Sequence record: OQ689735.1
Source of the DNA: Escherichia phage 4E10
DNA: 64,000 bases
Strand: one strand, 5' to 3'
Shown: one piece after another, positions 22,045 through 36,440 of the stretch
How the letters are laid out: each line of letters starts with the position of its first letter
How positions within the stretch are numbered: the first letter of the stretch is position 1
The notes under the pieces: model-generated
The model's input: only the letters and a program-made list of their open reading frames with translations
What the model was told of the DNA's origin: nothing
The model's database searches: none
Position numbers and translations under genes: made by a program

Positions 22045-22074
22045 ATTATAACACAACACGAGGGACTTGTAAAC
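22045..22074 (-). promoter_or_regulatory. T4-type early promoter (-35 GTTTAC, 18-nt spacer, -10 TATAAT) on - strand
   Basis: minus-strand read GTTTACAAGTCCCTCGTGTTGTGTTATAAT; near-identical copy at 37840-37870. Confidence 0.55.
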
Positions 22075-24131
22075 TACATCTTGAACTTTTTAGACATTCC
22101 GTTGATGTTAACCAAAGAAGCCAAGATTTGAGAAACTTCGTTTTCCTCTTCTTTTGATTCTTCTACAAGGAATTGATTAAACCCAGCCATTGGACGAACT
22201 TCGCCAGTTTCCATTAGATGATCGCCATCATATACCGATTCTTCTAATTGTTCAGAAGGAGGAACGATTGTGCCTTCGATTAGATACTTGTTATAAGCAG
22301 TTTCTTTCATCATGTACGTGCTTACTTTATTAATCTTCAACAAAATTCCACGCGGTAGAATAACTTCAGCTTCTGATGGAAATCCCGATAAATGACCTGG
22401 AACGATAACTTTGATTCGCTCAGCCCCTTTAATTACCATACCTACGCTAGTTTCAGCATCTTCATTCGCATAAGCAGAATGACTACCCATATGCATCAAA
22501 TCTTCTGCATCAACAGAACCTTCTCCTTCGCCAGAAAATACTGCACCGGAATCATCTAGAGCCATATAGTTTTTACCATGCTCACCGAAGATATTTGGTT
22601 TAAGCGATGTGGATACGAAGTTCTTGAAATAGAACATTTTGTTTTCAATGTTATGACGCAAAGTTTTAAAGGTAACTTCTTGTCCACGATAAAGCGTAGT
22701 TCCTGGAGGAAGAACTGATCCTTTGGCGAATGCAGAATCCAGAGTCTCGATGTGCTTAATAGCTCTTTCCATGTATTCTTCACGGGTAGAATCTGGTTTA
22801 CCCAAAAGGAACGAGTTCATTTCAACATATGAATCTGCACAATAATCTTCAATTACATCAGATTCAGCCTGAGTCAGTCCTTTTGGAGTTACTTCGGTGC
22901 TTGCGTATTCATATGCCTGAGCAGCAGATTCATTAATCAATTTATAAATGCCATTCATGACAAATTGAATAATAGCTACCTTTTCGTCTGGTGTGGCTTT
23001 AGAACCTTTAACTAAATCATTGATAATTTTCTTAATAACATCAAAGCTATTAGAAATATTAATGTCAGCTAGATCGCTCAAAATTTTATCGGTTTTATAA
23101 TCAAAAAATTCTTTATTCTTTAAATATTCTTGAGAACCTTGATGTGTTATATCGCTCTGCAGTCTGATAGACGGATCACGTAAACGTGCATGGGCCAATG
23201 CAATATGATTTCGGAAGCTTTCTAGTTCATAATCGTTAGATTTAAAACGAGAAGCACTTCTCATACCACCGATAGCTCCTTTGCCGAAGTTTGAACCAAT
23301 CTGAATAACGCCAGAGTTCATTGGTCCTTCTGCTTTATATACCGGAACTTTAGATTCAAACTCTTGATATTTCTTAGCGGCGAAGCTATCACCCTGTAGC
23401 GAAGCATCGACAGTAGAATATTGAGCTTGTGCTGCTAATCGACGACTAATTTTAGTTTTCTGAATAACAGCTTGATCCGTGCGCTTATCATTTTCTAAAG
23501 CAATAGAAGCAGCAACAGCAACAGCTTTAGGAACAGCATTACCTGTTTTAACGTCTACATAAACATCACCAACCTTTGATTCAACTTTTGTGAATAACTC
23601 AGTTGAAATAGGAGGTACACCTGGAATGTCTTCTAAATTGGCATTTTTACGGTAAACCATAATATATGCATACTTTTTATCATAGTCCCAGATTTCCTTT
23701 AAAAGAACATATCGACCTGCTCCTTTAGTACGTACTAAACGGTCAGCAATAACTTGCATTTGACGAGCTGCGCCATTTGTTTTACTTTTTAGTACGCGGA
23801 ATAAGCATGCGTCGATTTTATACTGCTTCATTGTTTGAAGAGCAGTATCAAAAACCGCATTAATGACGCCAATTGGATTTCCACCCAAGTTTCTAAGTTT
23901 AACCAGCGATAATTTCTCGTTGACACCTATCATTACGATATGCATCATTTTATCGCCTGGCTTAACGTTTTTATTTGTATCACCACCAGAGGTGTATGTA
24001 CAAAATCTAAATCCAGGAAGCACACTTTCTTCGCCGGCTTGAATAGCAAAAATTTGTGGTATTTTATGCTTAGGATTTAAGTTAACAACCGGCGCCGAAG
24101 CGCCGTCAAATAATTCTGTAATAAGTTCCAT
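22074..24131 (-). CDS. Alt-like ADP-ribosyltransferase paralog (685 aa)
   Basis: N-terminal 200 aa near-identical to adjacent Alt; C-terminal ART domain with R (YRGQ), STS and ExE (EAEVILPRG) motifs. Confidence 0.85.
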   Translation of the reverse strand: MELITELFDGASAPVVNLNPKHKIPQIFAIQAGEESVLPGFRFCTYTSGGDTNKNVKPGDKMMHIVMIGVNEKLSLVKLRNLGGNPIGVINAVFDTALQTMKQYKIDACLFRVLKSKTNGAARQMQVIADRLVRTKGAGRYVLLKEIWDYDKKYAYIMVYRKNANLEDIPGVPPISTELFTKVESKVGDVYVDVKTGNAVPKAVAVAASIALENDKRTDQAVIQKTKISRRLAAQAQYSTVDASLQGDSFAAKKYQEFESKVPVYKAEGPMNSGVIQIGSNFGKGAIGGMRSASRFKSNDYELESFRNHIALAHARLRDPSIRLQSDITHQGSQEYLKNKEFFDYKTDKILSDLADINISNSFDVIKKIINDLVKGSKATPDEKVAIIQFVMNGIYKLINESAAQAYEYASTEVTPKGLTQAESDVIEDYCADSYVEMNSFLLGKPDSTREEYMERAIKHIETLDSAFAKGSVLPPGTTLYRGQEVTFKTLRHNIENKMFYFKNFVSTSLKPNIFGEHGKNYMALDDSGAVFSGEGEGSVDAEDLMHMGSHSAYANEDAETSVGMVIKGAERIKVIVPGHLSGFPSEAEVILPRGILLKINKVSTYMMKETAYNKYLIEGTIVPPSEQLEESVYDGDHLMETGEVRPMAGFNQFLVEESKEEENEVSQILASLVNINGMSKKFKM

Positions 24132-24134
24132 GAT

Positions 24135-26225
24135 TTATCCTTGAACGAACTTGTAAGGCATGTTTGTAATATCTATGCAAGACGCAATAATTCCAAGAGA
24201 TGATTCGACTTTCTGTTTAACATTTGATGAAACAAATGACGCAAAATCAACTCTGTCTTCTATATCACCTGTCATTGTAACCAATTCACCAGTTTCCATT
24301 AAATGGTCTCCGTCATAGATTACCGATTCGGTGAGTTCTTCTGTGGTCATAACTTCAGCTTGAATGAGTTTTGTATTATTAGATGTTGTTCCGTCATTAT
24401 TAGAAGCATCAGTTATTTTATTAACTTTGACCATCAATCCACGCGGTAGAATAACTTCAGCTTCTGTTGCTATTCCGAGACTTCCTGGATATACAACATT
24501 AACTTTATGAGCTCCATCAATTGCCCATCCTATTTGAACTTTAACGTATTCAGGATTTTCTTTATACGCTCTTATTTCGTTTGGATTAATAGTTATTCCT
24601 TCTTCATTTTTATCAACTGTTAATTCATTACGAGCTTCTGGTTCTAAAAGACCAATACCAGCATGTGTGATTCCAAAACGTCCAAAAATGATAGGAGTTA
24701 AAGAAGTAGATACAAAATTTCTGAAGTAGAACACTTTATTTTTAACTAACGCTTCATATATAGGAGCAGTCATACTTTGAGCACGATAAACTGTAATGCC
24801 TTCTGGTATACGGTCACCATTTTCAAAAGCTGAATCTAAGTTATTTATAGCAGATTCAATTTCTTTTTCACTCATTACATCATATCGTTCTGGATTGTAG
24901 CGGCCTAAAAGAAGATTATTGATGTCAGTATATCCTGAACCGCAATATTCTCTAATGCCACGCTTTTGCGATGGAGTATATTTAGAACCATCACGGGCAA
25001 TAGTAATATCAATCATTGGACCTGCACCAATTCCGGAAAAGCTATAAATCATTCGTTTGAGGAATTTAGTTTTTGCTGCGTTCCAAGAATTTTTAGTTAT
25101 TTCTTCCCAGACTTCATCTGGCTGCCCTTTACGAGTTTTATTATGTTTATCAAGCCAATTATCTTTATATTCTTCAAAGAATTGATTAACAGCTGCTGCG
25201 TATTTCTCTAAACATTTTATTGAAGTAGTTGGTTCATTTTTAATCGCATTAAGAATTACATCTTTAATTTTTTCAGAAACTTCATTAACCTCACTTTTTG
25301 AAAAGAATTTATAGTCATAGTGAAGTTCATCTGCGGTTCCTTCGGCAATGATTTTTGCTGCCTTAGTTTTAGAAGCTAATGAATTAATTCCAAGCTTCAT
25401 TTCTTCTGCTTCGGGAATTAAAGGAGCGGTAGCAGGTTTATTGAAATTAGCTGCGGTAGATTCATACTTCTGGAATAATTCACTTTCAAATCTAGAAGAT
25501 TCCAACGACTGACTTTGCGCAATTGCTCTACGTGAAATTTTAACTTTAACGATTACCGCTTGGTCAGAACGTTTATCATTTTCTTGCGCAATAGATGCTG
25601 CAATTGCCTCATTTTTAGTTACTTGGGCTCCAGTATCTTTATTGATATAAACATCACCGACCTTCGATTCAACTTTAGTAAAGAGCTCGGTACTAATTTC
25701 CGGAACTCCTGGAATGTCTTCTAGTGATACATTTTTGCGATGTATAAGAATATATGCATACTTTTTATCATAATCCCAGAGTTCCTTGAGAAGGACGTAT
25801 CTGCCACCTGAACGACTACGGATAAGTCTATCAGCAATAACTTGAATTTGTCGAGCTTGTCCAGCAGTTTTAGACTTAAGAATACGAAGCATACAAGCAT
25901 CAATTTTATATTGACGCATTGTTTGCATTGCAACAGTAAAAACTGAATTGATATAATTAATTGGGCTTGGACCAAGACCTTTTAATTTAGCAATTGAACC
26001 TTTAGCAGTTAATGTAAAAGGAACAATGTGCATCATTTTGTCGCCCATTTTTAAATCGCGATTAGTATCACCTCCAGATGTATATGTACATAAACGAAAG
26101 CCTGGTTGTTCAATTGCATCATCAACATGAACTGAAAAAATTTGTGGTATTTTCTTCTTTGGATTTAAGTTTGTAATCGGAAGAGTAGTATCTTCGTCAA
26201 ATAATTCTGTAATAAGTTCCATCAT
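24135..26225 (-). CDS. alt: Alt ADP-ribosyltransferase (packaged, modifies host RNA polymerase)
   Basis: 696-aa ORF; R (YRAQ), STS, ExE (EAEVILPRG) ART motifs; position next to ligase gene as in T4. Confidence 0.85.
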   Translation of the reverse strand: MMELITELFDEDTTLPITNLNPKKKIPQIFSVHVDDAIEQPGFRLCTYTSGGDTNRDLKMGDKMMHIVPFTLTAKGSIAKLKGLGPSPINYINSVFTVAMQTMRQYKIDACMLRILKSKTAGQARQIQVIADRLIRSRSGGRYVLLKELWDYDKKYAYILIHRKNVSLEDIPGVPEISTELFTKVESKVGDVYINKDTGAQVTKNEAIAASIAQENDKRSDQAVIVKVKISRRAIAQSQSLESSRFESELFQKYESTAANFNKPATAPLIPEAEEMKLGINSLASKTKAAKIIAEGTADELHYDYKFFSKSEVNEVSEKIKDVILNAIKNEPTTSIKCLEKYAAAVNQFFEEYKDNWLDKHNKTRKGQPDEVWEEITKNSWNAAKTKFLKRMIYSFSGIGAGPMIDITIARDGSKYTPSQKRGIREYCGSGYTDINNLLLGRYNPERYDVMSEKEIESAINNLDSAFENGDRIPEGITVYRAQSMTAPIYEALVKNKVFYFRNFVSTSLTPIIFGRFGITHAGIGLLEPEARNELTVDKNEEGITINPNEIRAYKENPEYVKVQIGWAIDGAHKVNVVYPGSLGIATEAEVILPRGLMVKVNKITDASNNDGTTSNNTKLIQAEVMTTEELTESVIYDGDHLMETGELVTMTGDIEDRVDFASFVSSNVKQKVESSLGIIASCIDITNMPYKFVQG

Positions 26226-26245: not shown

Positions 26246-26253
26246 TATTTATA
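26246..26253 (-). promoter_or_regulatory. late promoter motif TATAAATA (- strand) upstream of alt
   Basis: tatttata on + strand, 20 nt upstream of alt ATG. Confidence 0.45.
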
Positions 26254-26258
26254 AAATT

Positions 26259-26276
26259 AAAGGCCCGAAGGCCTTT
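26259..26276 (-). terminator. hairpin AAAGGCC-CGAA-GGCCUUU between upstream small ORF and alt
   Basis: Inverted repeat aaaggcc...ggccttt seen directly. Confidence 0.5.
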
Positions 26277-26463
26277 AGTAATCTAGTGGTAAGAGAGTAC
26301 GATATATTTCAAACTTTGGTCCTTTTTCATAGGCATCAAATGTTTCTGTAAATTTATTGTAAGCATATGCATCTACAAATTCGAGAATGACTTGTGATAC
26401 AGAAGTAGAAACATCTCCACCTTCTTTTTGAGCAATGACAATTGTTTCTAAGTAAGCTTTCAT
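26275..26463 (-). CDS. hypothetical small acidic protein
   Basis: 62-aa ORF, ATG start overlapping ligase stop (ATGA-type coupling). Confidence 0.55.
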   Translation of the reverse strand: MKAYLETIVIAQKEGGDVSTSVSQVILEFVDAYAYNKFTETFDAYEKGPKFEIYRTLLPLDY

Positions 26464-27923
26464 AAACCAGTTACCTCATGAAAATCGCCAAATACATCCT
26501 CGAATGTATTAGCTTTAGTTTTATCTTCACGTAAACGAATCGCAATCGGAAGAAATAATTTAACGTAATCAGTGCGGCCATCAGATTTTAACCAACCGTT
26601 GCATTCGCACTCTAGAATTTTTCCAATATAATAATTTTGGTTTTCCATAATGCGAGTACGGTCAAGTTCATGCGATTTTACACCAGCTTTATCTTTTAAG
26701 CCTGAACCAGCATTTACTTTAATTTTTCCACACTCTGACTCAAGAATAAATCCACCCGCTTTAGTAGGGTCTTTACGGTGAGGATAAATTCCTACAATTT
26801 TTAAATCAACATCAATTATTTCTTTAAATTTATAAAGATTTTTTGAACGAGCATTTTCCCATAATCCATCGATATTTTTGAGAATAATACCTTCAAGACC
26901 TTGGTCAATATACTTTTTATAAATTACCTTAGCTTCATCTAGGTTATTTACTACCTGGTTTTCAATTAAAATTACTTTATCATAACCTGATGTCATTTGT
27001 TCTAGTTTAGAAAAACGTACATCATATTTCAAACGAAATGCAGGAAGACCGTATATTTCTACCAACGGGACATAATCCCAGACCTGAAACTTCATGCATT
27101 GAGCTTCTTTTTCAGAAATGGTTCCCTTTAAAGATTTATTAGCGATTCCATTAGAAGTAGTACGTGATTCAGCTACTTCGGCGAATTCTTTAGCTTTACT
27201 AATTTCAGGATAAGCATCAAAAAGAAAATCTAGGCCTTCTGGTTCCTTTTCAACTTGCTCATGGTATACCAATTCGCCATCAATTAACACACCTTCTGGA
27301 TGAATCTGGCGAGCTTCTGCAGTCATTTTGATTAACTCTTCCTTGAGAAGATCTAATCCTAGATATTCATTACCAGCTCGTGATAAAAGACGAACATCAT
27401 CTAATTCATCACCTCTGACTTCAGCAAAGCACCGAGCTCCATCAGCTTTTAATTGGGCAAAGGCTGGAAATTTGATATTCTTATTAATGCCTTTTTCATC
27501 ATAAGAACTTGCCAGCATTTGAGGTTGTTCAGGAATTAAACCTGGCCAAACTTTGTTTGCAATAGATACTGATGCACCACATTCAAGGTCTCGCATCATC
27601 ACCCGACGCAAAACTTCAACATCATCTTTTTTACCGTCAGCAATATATCCAGTTAATTCCTCAATTGCCGCATTTCCGGTCAATTTCCGAGTAGCTAACG
27701 TGAATTCAATGAAGTCAAGCATATCGGTAAGAGTCAACATTCCAAAACTCTGGGTAGCAATACCAGGTTTAGGCCATTTCTTGATATAATACTGTAACCC
27801 ACGAGAATAAGTCAGACGATATACTCGTTTAAGTAATTCATTATCTTTATTCTTTTCAAGAATTGCTTGCTTCTGCTTAGTTGAACCAATAGATGCTATT
27901 TCGTTCAGAATTTTAAGAATCAT
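26460..27923 (-). CDS. 30: ATP-dependent DNA ligase gp30
   Basis: 487-aa ORF; sequence MILKILNEIASIGSTKQKQAILEKNKDNELLKRVYRLTYSRGLQYYIKK... matches T4 DNA ligase from memory; KADG adenylation motif. Confidence 0.97.
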   Translation of the reverse strand: MILKILNEIASIGSTKQKQAILEKNKDNELLKRVYRLTYSRGLQYYIKKWPKPGIATQSFGMLTLTDMLDFIEFTLATRKLTGNAAIEELTGYIADGKKDDVEVLRRVMMRDLECGASVSIANKVWPGLIPEQPQMLASSYDEKGINKNIKFPAFAQLKADGARCFAEVRGDELDDVRLLSRAGNEYLGLDLLKEELIKMTAEARQIHPEGVLIDGELVYHEQVEKEPEGLDFLFDAYPEISKAKEFAEVAESRTTSNGIANKSLKGTISEKEAQCMKFQVWDYVPLVEIYGLPAFRLKYDVRFSKLEQMTSGYDKVILIENQVVNNLDEAKVIYKKYIDQGLEGIILKNIDGLWENARSKNLYKFKEIIDVDLKIVGIYPHRKDPTKAGGFILESECGKIKVNAGSGLKDKAGVKSHELDRTRIMENQNYYIGKILECECNGWLKSDGRTDYVKLFLPIAIRLREDKTKANTFEDVFGDFHEVTGL

Positions 27924-28189
27924 TGTTCATCCTTTAGAGTTTGGTTTACAGCTCTATTATAAATCAATTCATCATTAAGCTCAGTCAAAGACCTGTGGTA
28001 CGTGGTTCTAACTTTATTTCCTTGCATCCAGTGCTTGACGTAAATGAAACCTTGCTCTACACATTTTTTAAAAATTCGTTCGTCTTTTTGAGCTCGAAAT
28101 TCTGGATTGCATCTAAAAAATTGATTTACGTGACCGTAATCACGTGTAGTATTACCTTCATTTTCATAAATAGTGTGAACGACAAACAT
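27920..28189 (-). CDS. hypothetical protein (position of T4 30.1)
   Basis: 89-aa ORF, ATG start, stop overlaps ligase start. Confidence 0.6.
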   Translation of the reverse strand: MFVVHTIYENEGNTTRDYGHVNQFFRCNPEFRAQKDERIFKKCVEQGFIYVKHWMQGNKVRTTYHRSLTELNDELIYNRAVNQTLKDEQ

Positions 28190-29025
28190 TAGAATGCTCC
28201 TTGGAAAATATTATCACCACCAGTAGGTCTATTATACAAATACTCTATGCCACCAGGTTTAATATAGTTCCATGTCTGAAACGGATGTGTCTGATATGGA
28301 TGATATAGATTATAAGGATTAAATCCAGGAGTTCTCCAGGTAGTGTTCCAAGGAAAAGAATCATTTTTAATCATCTTTTCAATTACATCTTTTATAGCTT
28401 TTTCACTATCAAAACTTTCTTTATTTTCCTTCGATGGAAAAAGCTTATTCTCTACATCATTCCATGTATAAACTCGCTGCGCAGTTTTTGGAATACTGTC
28501 ACGCTCCCCTCGAGCCATCCAATAAACAGGAACATTTAATATTTCACTCGCGTGATCGCAGTGGTGAGCGAGATCGTCAATATAACAAATTACGTTATAT
28601 TTCTCTTTTGCCTTTTTGAACAACTCTTCTTTTGAAGAATCATGACCACACATCAATACTTCTGAGAAGGCACCAGGAAAAAGAGCATTCAAATTAAATT
28701 GACGATTTAGCAGAGCGTCAATAGAATCACCCAATGCTGTAACAGCTACAAAATTATAATCTTCTTTTAATTTGTTAATTACACACAGGGCATCTTTATA
28801 CGGAGACAAGTAACGAATAAAATCTGAACGATTGTATTTTTCAATTAACTTGACACCAAGTTCTTCATCGCAATTAAAGAGCTTACCAGGAGAAATAAAT
28901 TTTTCGTCCTGAATCATTTTTAAAATATGTTCCAACGGAAGATTATATTTTTGGGCAAAATAAGGAAGACCTGATTGCCAGCTTAAACATACACCATCAA
29001 TATCAGTTAAAATAGTAGGCTTCAT
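28189..29025 (-). CDS. HAD-superfamily hydrolase-like protein with C-terminal extension (position of T4 30.2)
   Basis: 278-aa ORF; N-terminal DIDGV (HAD motif I) and downstream ICYIDD acidic motif; about 100-aa unique C-terminus. Confidence 0.65.
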   Translation of the reverse strand: MKPTILTDIDGVCLSWQSGLPYFAQKYNLPLEHILKMIQDEKFISPGKLFNCDEELGVKLIEKYNRSDFIRYLSPYKDALCVINKLKEDYNFVAVTALGDSIDALLNRQFNLNALFPGAFSEVLMCGHDSSKEELFKKAKEKYNVICYIDDLAHHCDHASEILNVPVYWMARGERDSIPKTAQRVYTWNDVENKLFPSKENKESFDSEKAIKDVIEKMIKNDSFPWNTTWRTPGFNPYNLYHPYQTHPFQTWNYIKPGGIEYLYNRPTGGDNIFQGAF

Positions 29026-29480
29026 AGAGAGTCTCTTAATAGGTTTAACACATCAATAAATTCAGCTTCAGTTAGTATTGTATCATCTTTTGTTAGACCA
29101 CTAGCCATGCTGTGCTTCAAAACTTTTCCTTTCGAGGCTTGTAATGCATCACGAAAGCCCTTGTTTTGGATCGCTGCCTCAAAATACGCATTTGTGTATA
29201 ATTCTTTCCAGGCTGGGGAGTATCTTGAAAACGGAACTCCAAGCCAGAAGAGGGTCCCACGGTCCTGAGCTCTAGCATAAGACCTTCCAGCTTGTTGGGC
29301 GGCAAGCCCGGATAACCCAAATATACGTCTTTGCTGTTCAACATTTTTCACCTTACATCCTTGGAGGAATCCTTCGAGACCTCCAAATTGAATGCCATCC
29401 ATAACGAAAGGCCAATAGGCGAAATTACTTAATGCACATGATGGCCACCTAAAATTACTTCTAATCTCTAACTCAGACAT
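29022..29480 (-). CDS. NADAR (YbiA-like) domain protein (position of T4 30.3)
   Basis: 152-aa product from ATG at 29480 (track begins at TTG 29486); segment SNFAYWPFVMDGIQFGGLEGFLQGCK resembles E. coli YbiA SNFAAWPIKVDGKTWPTSEHYFQAQK from memory. Confidence 0.65.
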   Translation of the reverse strand: MSELEIRSNFRWPSCALSNFAYWPFVMDGIQFGGLEGFLQGCKVKNVEQQRRIFGLSGLAAQQAGRSYARAQDRGTLFWLGVPFSRYSPAWKELYTNAYFEAAIQNKGFRDALQASKGKVLKHSMASGLTKDDTILTEAEFIDVLNLLRDSL

Positions 29481-29679
29481 TTTCAATGCTTATAATTTCA
29501 ACATCAGCCCAATGACCATAGTTTGGTAGACGAAATTCAACTGGCCAGTCACTGCCTTTTTCTAATATAATAGACTCAACTTGCGGTTCTTCATGTTCAT
29601 CAGTATATGGATTTTTATCTGTTACTTTATATGTGACCTTAATGTACTGAATTCCAAAAATCTTATTAATTATATTCAT
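29473..29679 (-). CDS. hypothetical protein
   Basis: 68-aa ORF with ATG start, operon-packed. Confidence 0.5.
   Translation of the reverse strand: MNIINKIFGIQYIKVTYKVTDKNPYTDEHEEPQVESIILEKGSDWPVEFRLPNYGHWADVEIISIENV

Positions 29680-35235: not shown

Positions 35236-35236
<1 letters not shown>
35039..35236 (-). CDS. hypothetical protein
   Basis: 65-aa product from ATG at 35236 forming TAATG overlap with pseT stop. Confidence 0.45.

Positions 35237-36440
<1,204 letters not shown>

What the first reader, a model, noticed from the sequence alone, without database searches (positions are those of the whole stretch)
28189..29480. HAD-like hydrolase and NADAR protein directly upstream of ligase and two ADP-ribosyltransferases: possible ADP-ribose processing module
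The 278-aa product carries a HAD motif I (DIDGV) and the 152-aa product matches the NADAR/YbiA signature (SNFAYWPFVMDG...). They are co-oriented and translationally coupled, a few genes from two Alt-type ADP-ribosyltransferases. An ADP-ribose-removing enzyme plus a phosphatase next to ADP-ribosyltransferases suggests a write/erase module for ADP-ribosylation. This is a hypothesis from gene content and neighbourhood, not a demonstrated function.
Basis: inference. Interest (0 to 1): 0.55.

Follow-up and report, generated by a model that had tools for sequence, protein, structure and literature searches.

The report
T4 genes 30.2 and 30.3 (AdfN)
These are the well-conserved phage T4 genes 30.3 (AdfN, a published enzyme that strips host-added ADP-ribose off phage DNA to defeat the DarTG1 defence) and 30.2 (an uncharacterised nucleotidase-like phosphatase), and the evidence is against them forming a write/erase unit with the nearby Alt enzymes.

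Summary
The window is a T4-like phage (Tequatrovirus). ORF 29022-29480(-) is gene 30.3 and ORF 28189-29025(-) is gene 30.2.

- **gp30.3** is 150/152 identical to T4 AdfN. AdfN is a NADAR DNA ADP-ribosylglycohydrolase, shown in 2023-2025 papers to remove guanine ADP-ribose and to be required for T4 growth on DarTG1 hosts. The window copy is full length and keeps E36, K43 and H123. Its model matches only the three solved NADAR structures.

The "write/erase module" reading is not supported:
- In published T4 transposon sequencing on a DarTG1 host, 30.3 insertions are lost (log2FC -7.25). Insertions in 30.2 (-0.12) and alt (-0.01) are neutral.
- Overlapping stop/start codons link the whole run 30.4-30.3-30.2-30.1-ligase, not just this pair.
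- A terminator and a late promoter separate this run from Alt.
- In related phages the HAD gene stays next to ligase. The NADAR gene is within 6 kb in only 12 of 27 loci and is often 53-69 kb away.

Verdict: already known, low interest. The one open point is gp30.2's substrate.

The parts
29022..29480 (-). Gene 30.3 = adfN: 152-aa NADAR-superfamily (gp30.3 clade) DNA ADP-ribosylglycohydrolase. Catalytic E36 (29373-29375), K43 (29352-29354) and the clade-specific H123 (29112-29114). The C-terminal helix (residues 138-151) is present.
   Evidence: PF08010 E=1.5e-69. 150/152 identical to T4 gp30.3. E36 and H123 invariant and K43 nearly invariant in 36 homologs. AF2 pLDDT 92.8, with top Foldseek hits 2b3w, 8bau and 8bat. 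Function of the T4 ortholog published.
28189..29025 (-). Gene 30.2: 278-aa HAD-superfamily phosphatase, NT5C-like. The catalytic core with a helical C1 cap spans about residues 1-196 (28438-29025). A poorly conserved, low-confidence aromatic/proline-rich tail spans about residues 200-278.
28990..29004 (-). HAD motif I, D8-I-D10-G-V: nucleophile Asp and general acid/base Asp.
   Evidence: D8, D10 and G11 invariant in 40 homologs. Both Asp also invariant in 91 distant relatives.
28222..28251 (-). Short conserved motif GIEYLYNRPT (residues 259-268) inside the disordered tail of gp30.2. Possibly a docking peptide.
   Evidence: The same motif is found in 16 of 57 long-tailed homologs and only once in the window. 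The tail has pLDDT <50.
29473..29679 (-). Gene 30.4 (68 aa, function unknown). Its stop overlaps the 30.3 start by 8 nt (ATGTCTGA).
   Evidence: T4 30.4 insertions are partly depleted on DarTG1 (log2FC -1.79, padj 0.014), which fits a polar or coupling effect on 30.3.
27920..28189 (-). Gene 30.1 (DUF3045, 89 aa), between 30.2 and ligase. Its start overlaps the 30.2 stop (TAATG).
   Evidence: PF11243 E=2.9e-64; junction sequence. A natural 30.2-core/30.1 fusion protein exists (P0015).
26460..27923 (-). Gene 30, ATP-dependent DNA ligase. It is the conserved downstream neighbour of 30.2.
   Evidence: PF01068. Ligase lies downstream of the HAD gene in all 27 assessable T4-like loci.
26246..26277 (-). 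Transcription boundary: a hairpin terminator (26258-26277) followed by the T4 late-promoter consensus TATAAATA (26246-26253), about 20 nt upstream of the Alt start.
24135..26225 (-). Alt ADP-ribosyltransferase, the T4 alt ortholog. Not part of the 30.x unit.
   Evidence: PF03496 E=1.8e-37; 71% identical to T4 Alt.
22074..24131 (-). Second, intact Alt paralogue. T4 has only the remnants alt.-1 and alt.-2 at this position.
   Evidence: PF03496 E=3.2e-20; 41% identical to T4 Alt; T4 annotation.

Best explanation
The two ORFs are the T4 genes 30.3 and 30.2, two independent genes within a run of small minus-strand genes (30.4, 30.3, 30.2, 30.1, ligase) whose stop and start codons overlap.

**gp30.3 is AdfN.** It is a stand-alone NADAR glycohydrolase. 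It cuts the N-glycosidic bond between ADP-ribose and guanine that the host toxin DarT1 places on phage DNA. This restores replication on DarTG1 hosts. The activity and phenotype are shown experimentally for the 99%-identical T4 protein; for this copy they are inferred from identity, the intact catalytic residues and the full length.

**gp30.2 is a Mg-dependent HAD phosphatase with a helical C1 cap.** It sits next to the 5'(3')-deoxyribonucleotidase (NT5C) family. It most likely dephosphorylates a nucleoside monophosphate or a similar small phospho-nucleotide in the infected cell (inferred; substrate unknown). It does not need AdfN, and AdfN does not need it.

**The Alt enzymes are a separate unit.** They are transcribed from a late promoter and packaged in the virion. 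They modify host proteins, so there is no phage-internal write/erase circuit.
For: **AdfN**
- 150/152 identity to T4 gp30.3, with E36, K43, H123 and the C-terminal helix all present.
- NADAR fold.
- T4 AdfN removes ADP-ribose from DarT1-modified DNA in vitro; E36A and K43A weaken rescue; deletion sensitises T4 to DarTG1 (PMC11825919).
- T4 gp30.3 hydrolyses guanosine-ADPr but not thymidine-ADPr (PMC11125620).
- In T4 transposon sequencing on DarTG1, 30.3 has log2FC -7.25.

**gp30.2**
- All four HAD motifs are conserved, with the DxD form typical of phosphatases.
- The family profile aligns W16, F43 and Y64 with aromatic residues of mouse cytosolic deoxyribonucleotidase (cdN), which I recall as its base-binding residues.
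- 35 of 91 distant relatives hit Pfam NT5C, and one passes the curated cut-off.

**Independence**
- 30.2 insertions are neutral on DarTG1 (-0.12), in rich medium (72 of 72 TA sites hit) and in minimal medium (-0.10).
- The HAD gene keeps its position next to ligase in 27 of 27 assessable loci, while NADAR is within 6 kb in 12 of 27.
- In six genomes NADAR lies 53-69 kb away from the HAD gene.
- 51 distant HAD loci have no NADAR nearby.
- Only 19 of 80 NADAR loci have the HAD gene within 3 kb.
- No HAD-NADAR fusion was seen.

**Alt as a separate unit**
- Terminator plus TATAAATA directly upstream of Alt.
- alt insertions are neutral on DarTG1.
Against: - No biochemical data exist for gp30.2. 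The window protein itself is below Pfam cut-offs for HAD and NT5C, so the nucleotidase assignment rests on remote homology and modelling.
- Both genes are near-universal in T4-like phages with the same host-genus profile. They are adjacent in several divergent lineages (Tequatrovirus, Acinetobacter, Aeromonas/Vibrio-type phages). An ancestral functional link is therefore not excluded.
- AdfN works fully only during T-even infection, and its authors suspect an unknown helper protein.
- Whether AdfN can act on arginine-linked ADP-ribose made by Alt, ModA or ModB was not found to have been tested in the papers read.
Confidence: 0.72

Rival explanations
1. One reading: NADAR (eraser), HAD phosphatase (processing the released ADP-ribose or its phosphates) and the two Alt enzymes (writers) form one write/erase module for ADP-ribosylation.
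For: - All four proteins are encoded within 7.5 kb on one strand.
- NADAR genes near ARTs in T4-like phages were noted before (PMC9503650).
- Guanine-N2 and arginine linkages are both N-glycosidic bonds to guanidine-like nitrogens (own chemical reasoning).
- No test of AdfN on Arg-ADPr was found.
Against: - alt and 30.2 insertions have no effect where adfN is indispensable.
- adfN is dispensable on hosts without DarTG1 even though Alt is active there (27 of 28 TA sites hit).
- Alt sits behind a terminator with its own late promoter.
- Linkage is not conserved.
- The demonstrated substrate is DarT1-modified DNA.
Confidence: 0.05
2. gp30.2 is the unknown T-even helper that AdfN needs to work in cells. 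It could recruit AdfN to phage DNA or clear an inhibitory product.
For: - AdfN does not rescue uninfected E. coli or non-T-even phages from DarT1, and its authors propose an additional T-even protein.
- 30.2 is the translationally coupled downstream gene.
- 30.2 is present in essentially all T4-like phages.
Against: - 71 TA sites in T4 30.2 carry insertions with log2FC -0.12 (p=0.61) on the DarTG1 host, against -7.25 for 30.3.
- In many T4-like phages the two genes are more than 50 kb apart.
Confidence: 0.05
3. gp30.2 is a DNA-end 3'-phosphatase that prepares nicks for the neighbouring DNA ligase. This would be an end-healing and sealing pair.
For: - HAD, (30.1), ligase order is kept in all 27 assessable T4-like loci.
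- HAD phosphatases include polynucleotide 3'-phosphatases such as the T4 PseT domain (established knowledge; pseT is also in this window at 35236-36141).
Against: - The model has a helical cap inserted between motifs I and II. From general knowledge of HAD enzymes, such caps go with small-molecule substrates.
- The nearest relatives are nucleotidases.
- 51 distant relatives are not next to a ligase.
- T4-like genomes are highly syntenic, so adjacency alone is weak evidence.
- T4 already has PseT for this job.
Confidence: 0.1

Closest known systems
T4 AdfN (gp30.3), anti-DarT factor NADAR (Johannesman et al. 2025, PMC11825919; Schuller et al. 2023, PMC11543638; Toxins 2024, PMC11125620)
   Same: Orthologous gene at the same genome position and 150/152 identical. 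Same length, with E36, K43, H123 and the C-terminal helix.
   Different: Only two substitutions (Q22Y, I125M). M125 is the family consensus. No functional difference is expected.
DarG1 and other bacterial NADARs (E. coli C7 and Geobacter lovleyi NADAR antitoxins; E. coli YbiA)
   Same: Same fold and catalytic Glu/Lys. Same reaction, hydrolysis of guanine-ADP-ribose.
   Different: - Orphan: there is no cognate DarT toxin.
- Histidine replaces the Asp or Glu of the last strand.
- It lacks the N-terminal extensions.
[quoted passage not shown]
5'(3')-deoxyribonucleotidases, the NT5C family (human/mouse cdN and mdN, PDB 2jao and 2i7d; S. epidermidis 3bwv)
   Same: - HAD core with a helical cap.
- DxDGV motif I followed by an aromatic-x-S-G-L segment.
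- Aligned aromatic residues W16, F43 and Y64.
- Best sequence-profile and near-best structural match.
- Distant relatives of gp30.2 hit PF06941.
   Different: - gp30.2 itself is below the Pfam cut-off.
- Only 17-20% identity.
- It has an extra ~80-residue tail, mostly predicted with low confidence, that carries its own conserved motif.
- Substrate untested.
T5 Dmp, deoxynucleoside-5'-monophosphatase
   Same: A phage-encoded enzyme with a DxDGT-type motif I that dephosphorylates dNMPs. It is a functional precedent for a phage nucleotidase.
   Different: No detectable relationship beyond motif I: hhalign probability 1.5%, and no Pfam hit. It is a pre-early gene with a known role in disposing of host DNA.
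Operon-encoded writer/eraser pairs (DarT-DarG, DarT1-NADAR, YarT-YbiA)
   Same: An ART gene and an ADP-ribose hydrolase gene lie in one genome region.
   Different: In those pairs the two genes are adjacent, co-transcribed, consistently linked, and act on the same substrate. Here they are four genes apart and separated by a terminator and a late promoter. They are not consistently linked, and their known targets differ.

Membership tests
NADAR superfamily, phage gp30.3 clade (PF08010) | Significant match to the curated family model | tested here: met
   PF08010: 232.6 bits against a cut-off of 36, covering model positions 1-138 of 138.
NADAR superfamily, phage gp30.3 clade (PF08010) | YbiA-type alpha+beta fold | tested here: met
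   AF2 pLDDT 92.8. The only Foldseek hits with probability >=0.99 are YbiA 2b3w (TM 0.67), 8bau and 8bat. The family profile hits only 2b3w in the PDB, E=0.0046.
NADAR superfamily, phage gp30.3 clade (PF08010) | Catalytic Glu and Lys, plus the clade-specific His in the last strand | tested here: met
   E36 and H123 are invariant and K43 nearly invariant in 36 homologs, and all three are present in the window copy. Their roles come from PMC11825919 and PMC11543638.
NADAR superfamily, phage gp30.3 clade (PF08010) | Hydrolysis of guanine-linked ADP-ribose on DNA | not testable with these tools
   Shown for T4 gp30.3, which is 99% identical, in two papers.
AdfN anti-DarTG1 counter-defence | Orthology and full length. 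The RB69 allele, truncated by 15 residues, is inactive. | tested here: met
   152 aa, identical in length to T4, at the same position between 30.4 and 30.2.
AdfN anti-DarTG1 counter-defence | Required for plating on DarTG1 hosts | not testable with these tools
   Published for T4: deletion phenotype and Tn-seq log2FC -7.25.
HAD superfamily phosphatase | Motifs I (DxDx[TV]), II (T/S), III (K) and IV (DD) | tested here: met
   D8, D10, G11 and K132 are invariant; T96, D150 and D151 are at least 90% conserved in 40 homologs. The two Asp and the Lys are also invariant in 91 distant relatives.
HAD superfamily phosphatase | Rossmann-like HAD fold with cap | tested here: met
HAD superfamily phosphatase | Match to curated Pfam HAD models above the cut-off | tested here: not met
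   No Pfam hit for the window protein. Only sub-threshold hits to PF00702 in 12 of 40 homologs. Membership therefore rests on motifs and fold.
NT5C 5'(3')-deoxyribonucleotidase family (PF06941) | Match to PF06941 above the cut-off | tested here: inconclusive
   - Not met by the window protein.
- 8 of 40 close homologs hit PF06941 at E<=1, best 1.2e-4.
- 35 of 91 distant relatives match at E<=1e-3.
- P0340 passes the cut-off, 37.3 against 24.8 bits.
NT5C 5'(3')-deoxyribonucleotidase family (PF06941) | Aromatic residues that stack on the base. I recall these as F18, F44 and Y65 in human cytosolic deoxyribonucleotidase (cdN), from memory of the structural papers. | tested here: inconclusive
   The profile alignment to 2jao places invariant W16, nearly invariant F43 and invariant Y64 opposite the corresponding aromatic residues. 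The roles of these residues are recalled, not checked here.
NT5C 5'(3')-deoxyribonucleotidase family (PF06941) | dNMP phosphatase activity | not testable with these tools
   No paper mentioning gp30.2 was found.
Writer/eraser ADP-ribosylation operon (DarT-DarG type) | ART and hydrolase genes adjacent and co-transcribed | tested here: not met
   Four genes (30.2, 30.1, 30, alt.1) lie between them. A terminator at 26258-26277 and a late promoter at 26246-26253 precede Alt.
Writer/eraser ADP-ribosylation operon (DarT-DarG type) | Linkage conserved among relatives | tested here: not met
   NADAR is within 6 kb of HAD/ligase/Alt in 12 of 27 T4-like loci, and 53-69 kb away in six genomes. An Alt-like gene is within 3 kb in 13 of 80 NADAR loci.
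Writer/eraser ADP-ribosylation operon (DarT-DarG type) | The eraser is needed because of the writer (genetic dependence) | tested here: not met
   From published T4 Tn-seq read here: adfN is dispensable on K-12, where Alt is active. alt is neutral on DarTG1, where adfN is indispensable.

The most novel reading that the evidence does not exclude
gp30.2 may be an unrecognised counter-defence or pool-sanitising nucleotidase. It is conserved across T4-like phages. In this reading it removes the phosphate from a host-made toxic or signalling nucleotide, or from a product of ADP-ribose breakdown. It would be docked to a partner through the conserved GIEYL..QPT peptide in its disordered tail. Its ancestral position next to adfN would then reflect a shared role against nucleotide-based immunity, one that shows only on hosts not yet tested.
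Probability: 0.12. Interest if true: 0.55.

Novelty: already known. Interest (0 to 1): 0.2.

Why it matters
AdfN is a clear example of a phage borrowing an antitoxin-type enzyme to undo a host DNA modification. Recognising it in a new genome predicts resistance to DarTG1, which is useful when choosing therapeutic phages. That biology is already published.

The remaining gap is modest but real. gp30.2 is a HAD phosphatase found in about 1,450 sequenced phages. It has no known substrate and no phenotype in the conditions checked here (LB, M9 and a DarTG1 host), and the HIDEN-SEQ text does not name it as a hit in any other screen. AdfN's unexplained dependence on T-even infection also remains open, and the data read here argue that gp30.2 is not the missing helper.

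Tried and rejected
- **Single-sequence searches.** phmmer of each protein against PDB sequences gave only chance-level hits. Family profiles were needed.
- **Curated libraries.** Pfam, NCBIfam and PADLOC gave nothing usable for gp30.2. The weak thiamine pyrophosphokinase hits (E 0.01-0.1) are far below cut-off, and I treated them as noise.
- **T5 Dmp as a relative of gp30.2.** Rejected: hhalign probability 1.5%.
- **gp30.2 as AdfN's helper.** Rejected on the T4 Tn-seq data.
- **Gene fusions linking HAD and NADAR.** None found among 204 homologs and the longer representatives. The only fusion seen is HAD with 30.1.
- **Neighbours of distant HAD homologs** (PhoH, clamp loader, tail-fibre-like proteins) gave no functional clue.
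- **Neighbours of relocated NADAR genes** (tRNA region, DUF7768, dNMP kinase, small unknown genes) showed no HAD or ART partner.
- **Literature searches** for gp30.2, or for 30.1/30.2/30.3 together with T4 and ligase, returned no papers.
- **AdfN on arginine-linked ADP-ribose.** I found no report of such a test in the NADAR papers, so this point stays untested rather than refuted.
Full report
**What is there.** The region lies in a T4-like phage genome. A 2-kb query around the finding matches 688 phage records. The best are Shigella phage SH7 (99.1%) and RB51 (98.3%), where the genes are annotated 30.1 to 30.5 and DNA ligase. On the minus strand the order is 30.4 (29473-29679), 30.3 (29022-29480), 30.2 (28189-29025), 30.1 (27920-28189), ligase gene 30 (26460-27923), alt.1 (26275-26463), Alt (24135-26225) and a second Alt paralogue (22074-24131). 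This is the T4 order. The 152-aa and 278-aa products are 150/152 and 271/278 identical to T4 gp30.3 and gp30.2.

**gp30.3 is AdfN, a NADAR enzyme.** It matches Pfam PF08010 (Phage_30_3) at E=1.5e-69. A profile of 36 homologs hits only E. coli YbiA in the PDB. An AlphaFold2 model with pLDDT 92.8 has just three confident structural matches: YbiA, the Phytophthora NADAR bound to ADP-ribose, and the Geobacter lovleyi NADAR antitoxin.

- Schuller et al. 2023 established that NADARs reverse guanine ADP-ribosylation and noted that phage NADARs carry a histidine in the last strand.
- A 2024 study showed that purified T4 gp30.3 hydrolyses guanosine-ADP-ribose but not thymidine-ADP-ribose.
- Johannesman et al. 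2025 renamed 30.3 adfN. They showed that it removes ADP-ribose from DarT1-modified DNA, that E36 and K43 matter, that the RB69 allele truncated by 15 residues is defective, and that T4 lacking adfN becomes sensitive to DarTG1.

The window copy has E36, K43 and H123 and is full length. I infer that it is functional.

**gp30.2 is a HAD phosphatase closest to deoxyribonucleotidases.** On its own it gives no Pfam hit. Forty homologs show the four HAD motifs: D8, D10, G11 and K132 are invariant, and T96, D150 and D151 are conserved in at least 90%. The model is confident over residues 1-190.

- Foldseek returns 118 matches at E<=1e-3, and every listed match is a HAD protein. The list is headed by a deoxyribonucleotidase-like protein (3bwv) and mouse and human cytosolic 5'(3')-deoxyribonucleotidase (cdN).
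- The family profile's best PDB sequence hit is 5'(3')-deoxyribonucleotidase 2jao (E=0.025). That alignment pairs W16, F43 and Y64 with aromatic residues of mouse cdN. Their base-binding role is recalled from memory, not checked here.
- An exhaustive profile search finds 1,480 cluster representatives at E<=1e-3, mostly stand-alone proteins of about 200 aa.
- Of 91 distant relatives, 35 hit Pfam NT5C, and one exceeds the curated cut-off.

The DxD form of motif I is typical of phosphatases, and the helical cap between motifs I and II goes with small-molecule substrates (general knowledge of HAD enzymes). Taken together with the NT5C relationship, this points to a nucleotide phosphatase. The substrate is not known. 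No paper on gp30.2 was found. The last ~80 residues are variable, and most are predicted with low confidence.

**Are they a module with each other or with Alt?** Several lines of evidence say no.

- *Coupling.* Start/stop overlap is a property of the whole cluster: 30.4/30.3 overlap by 8 nt, 30.3/30.2 by 4, 30.2/30.1 by 1, and 30.1/ligase by 4.
- *Transcription.* A hairpin terminator (26258-26277) followed by the T4 late-promoter consensus TATAAATA (26246-26253) lies immediately upstream of Alt. This fits Alt being a virion-packaged protein (T4 record note).
- *Genetics.* I read the supplementary tables of a T4 transposon-sequencing study (HIDEN-SEQ).
  - 30.2 is non-essential, with 72 of 72 TA sites hit.
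  - On a DarTG1 host, 30.3 insertions are lost (log2FC -7.25, adjusted p 0).
  - On the same host, 30.2 (-0.12, p=0.61) and alt (-0.01) are unaffected.
  - 30.4 is mildly depleted (-1.79), as expected from a polar or coupling effect on 30.3.
  - 30.2 also shows no effect in minimal against rich medium (-0.10).
- *Comparative genomics.*
  - Both genes are near-universal in T4-like phages (1455 and 1510 records, same host-genus profile), so co-occurrence alone carries no information.
  - In 27 assessable T4-like loci the HAD gene always precedes ligase, but NADAR is within 6 kb in only 12.
  - In six genomes where NADAR is missing from that position it lies 53-69 kb away, among tRNA genes and small unknown genes.
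  - Fifty-one distant HAD loci have no NADAR, ligase or Alt nearby.
  - Only 19 of 80 NADAR loci have the HAD gene within 3 kb.
  - No HAD-NADAR fusion was seen.

**What remains open.**

- AdfN works fully only during T-even infection, and its discoverers suspect a helper protein. The Tn-seq data argue that gp30.2 is not that helper.
- I found no report testing AdfN on arginine-linked ADP-ribose. An eraser role towards Alt products is therefore untested rather than disproved. The dispensability of adfN on hosts without DarTG1 makes a major role unlikely.
- The adjacency of NADAR and HAD in several divergent lineages may be ancestral, so a shared role under untested conditions cannot be excluded. 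I give this about 10%.

**Comparison with known systems.** gp30.3 is a member of the NADAR superfamily and the ortholog of AdfN. It works like the DarG1 antitoxin, but it is an orphan with no cognate toxin, and it carries a histidine where the other NADAR subfamilies have Asp or Glu. gp30.2 is a member of the HAD superfamily by motifs and fold. It is best described as NT5C-like, since the curated Pfam threshold is not met by this protein itself. T5 Dmp is a functional precedent for a phage nucleotidase but is not detectably related. The locus does not meet the defining features of writer/eraser operons such as DarT-DarG.

**Verdict.** But the genes are T4 30.2 and 30.3, the NADAR function is already published, and the evidence is against the proposed module with Alt and the HAD protein. 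Interest is low. The only unexplored item is the substrate and role of gp30.2.

Noticed in passing
window 29117-29344 (-): The internal out-of-frame ORF that T4 annotates as 30.3' (75 aa) is present. It is only 88% identical to T4's, while the overlapping 30.3 frame is 99% identical. The substitutions are therefore silent for 30.3 but not for 30.3', which suggests that 30.3' is not a real coding gene.
   Followed up: partly
window 22074-24131 (-): There is a second, intact 685-aa Alt-type ADP-ribosyltransferase, 41% identical to T4 Alt, with the R / S-T-S / E-x-E motifs visible. It sits where T4 has only the decayed duplicates alt.-1 and alt.-2. The first Alt copy is mosaic: near-identical to T4 at both ends and divergent in the middle and catalytic part.
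   Followed up: partly
window 28222-28251 (-), residues 259-268 of gp30.2: A short motif, G(T)G-I-E-Y-L-x-x-[QR]-P-T, is conserved near the C-terminus of 16 of 57 long-tailed gp30.2 homologs. The tail is otherwise variable and predicted with low confidence. It looks like a docking peptide for an unknown partner.
   Followed up: partly
protein P0015 (homolog of window 27920-29025): P0015 is a natural single protein that joins the gp30.2 HAD core to a gp30.1/DUF3045 domain, with the tail lost. It comes from a short metagenomic contig. It hints that 30.1, not 30.3, may be the functional partner of 30.2, but it could also be an assembly or frameshift artefact.
   Followed up: no
homologs of window 29022-29480 (P0104-P0107, P0113, P0115, P0117, P0121): Many close relatives of gp30.3 in public data are truncated (83-126 aa at 80-98% identity). 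This recalls the inactive, truncated RB69 allele described in PMC11825919. adfN may often be lost or miscalled in E. coli phages.
   Followed up: no
window 29473-29679 (-), gene 30.4: In published T4 Tn-seq, insertions in 30.4 are significantly depleted on the DarTG1 host (log2FC -1.79, adjusted p 0.014). Its stop overlaps the adfN start by 8 nt. This is probably a polar or coupling effect, but an accessory role for gp30.4 is not excluded.
   Followed up: no
L149:2998-3818 and loci L106, L115, L129, L138, L160: In T4-like lineages where the NADAR gene is not next to the HAD gene, it sits 53-69 kb away in a tRNA-rich region. In L149 its stop overlaps the start of a DUF7768 gene (PF24963, E=5.5e-27).
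   Followed up: partly
window 35236-36141 (-): The window also carries pseT (polynucleotide kinase/3'-phosphatase, 301 aa), whose C-terminal half has its own HAD motif I (VIFDVDGTL). gp30.2 is therefore not the only HAD phosphatase in this early-gene region.
   Followed up: no
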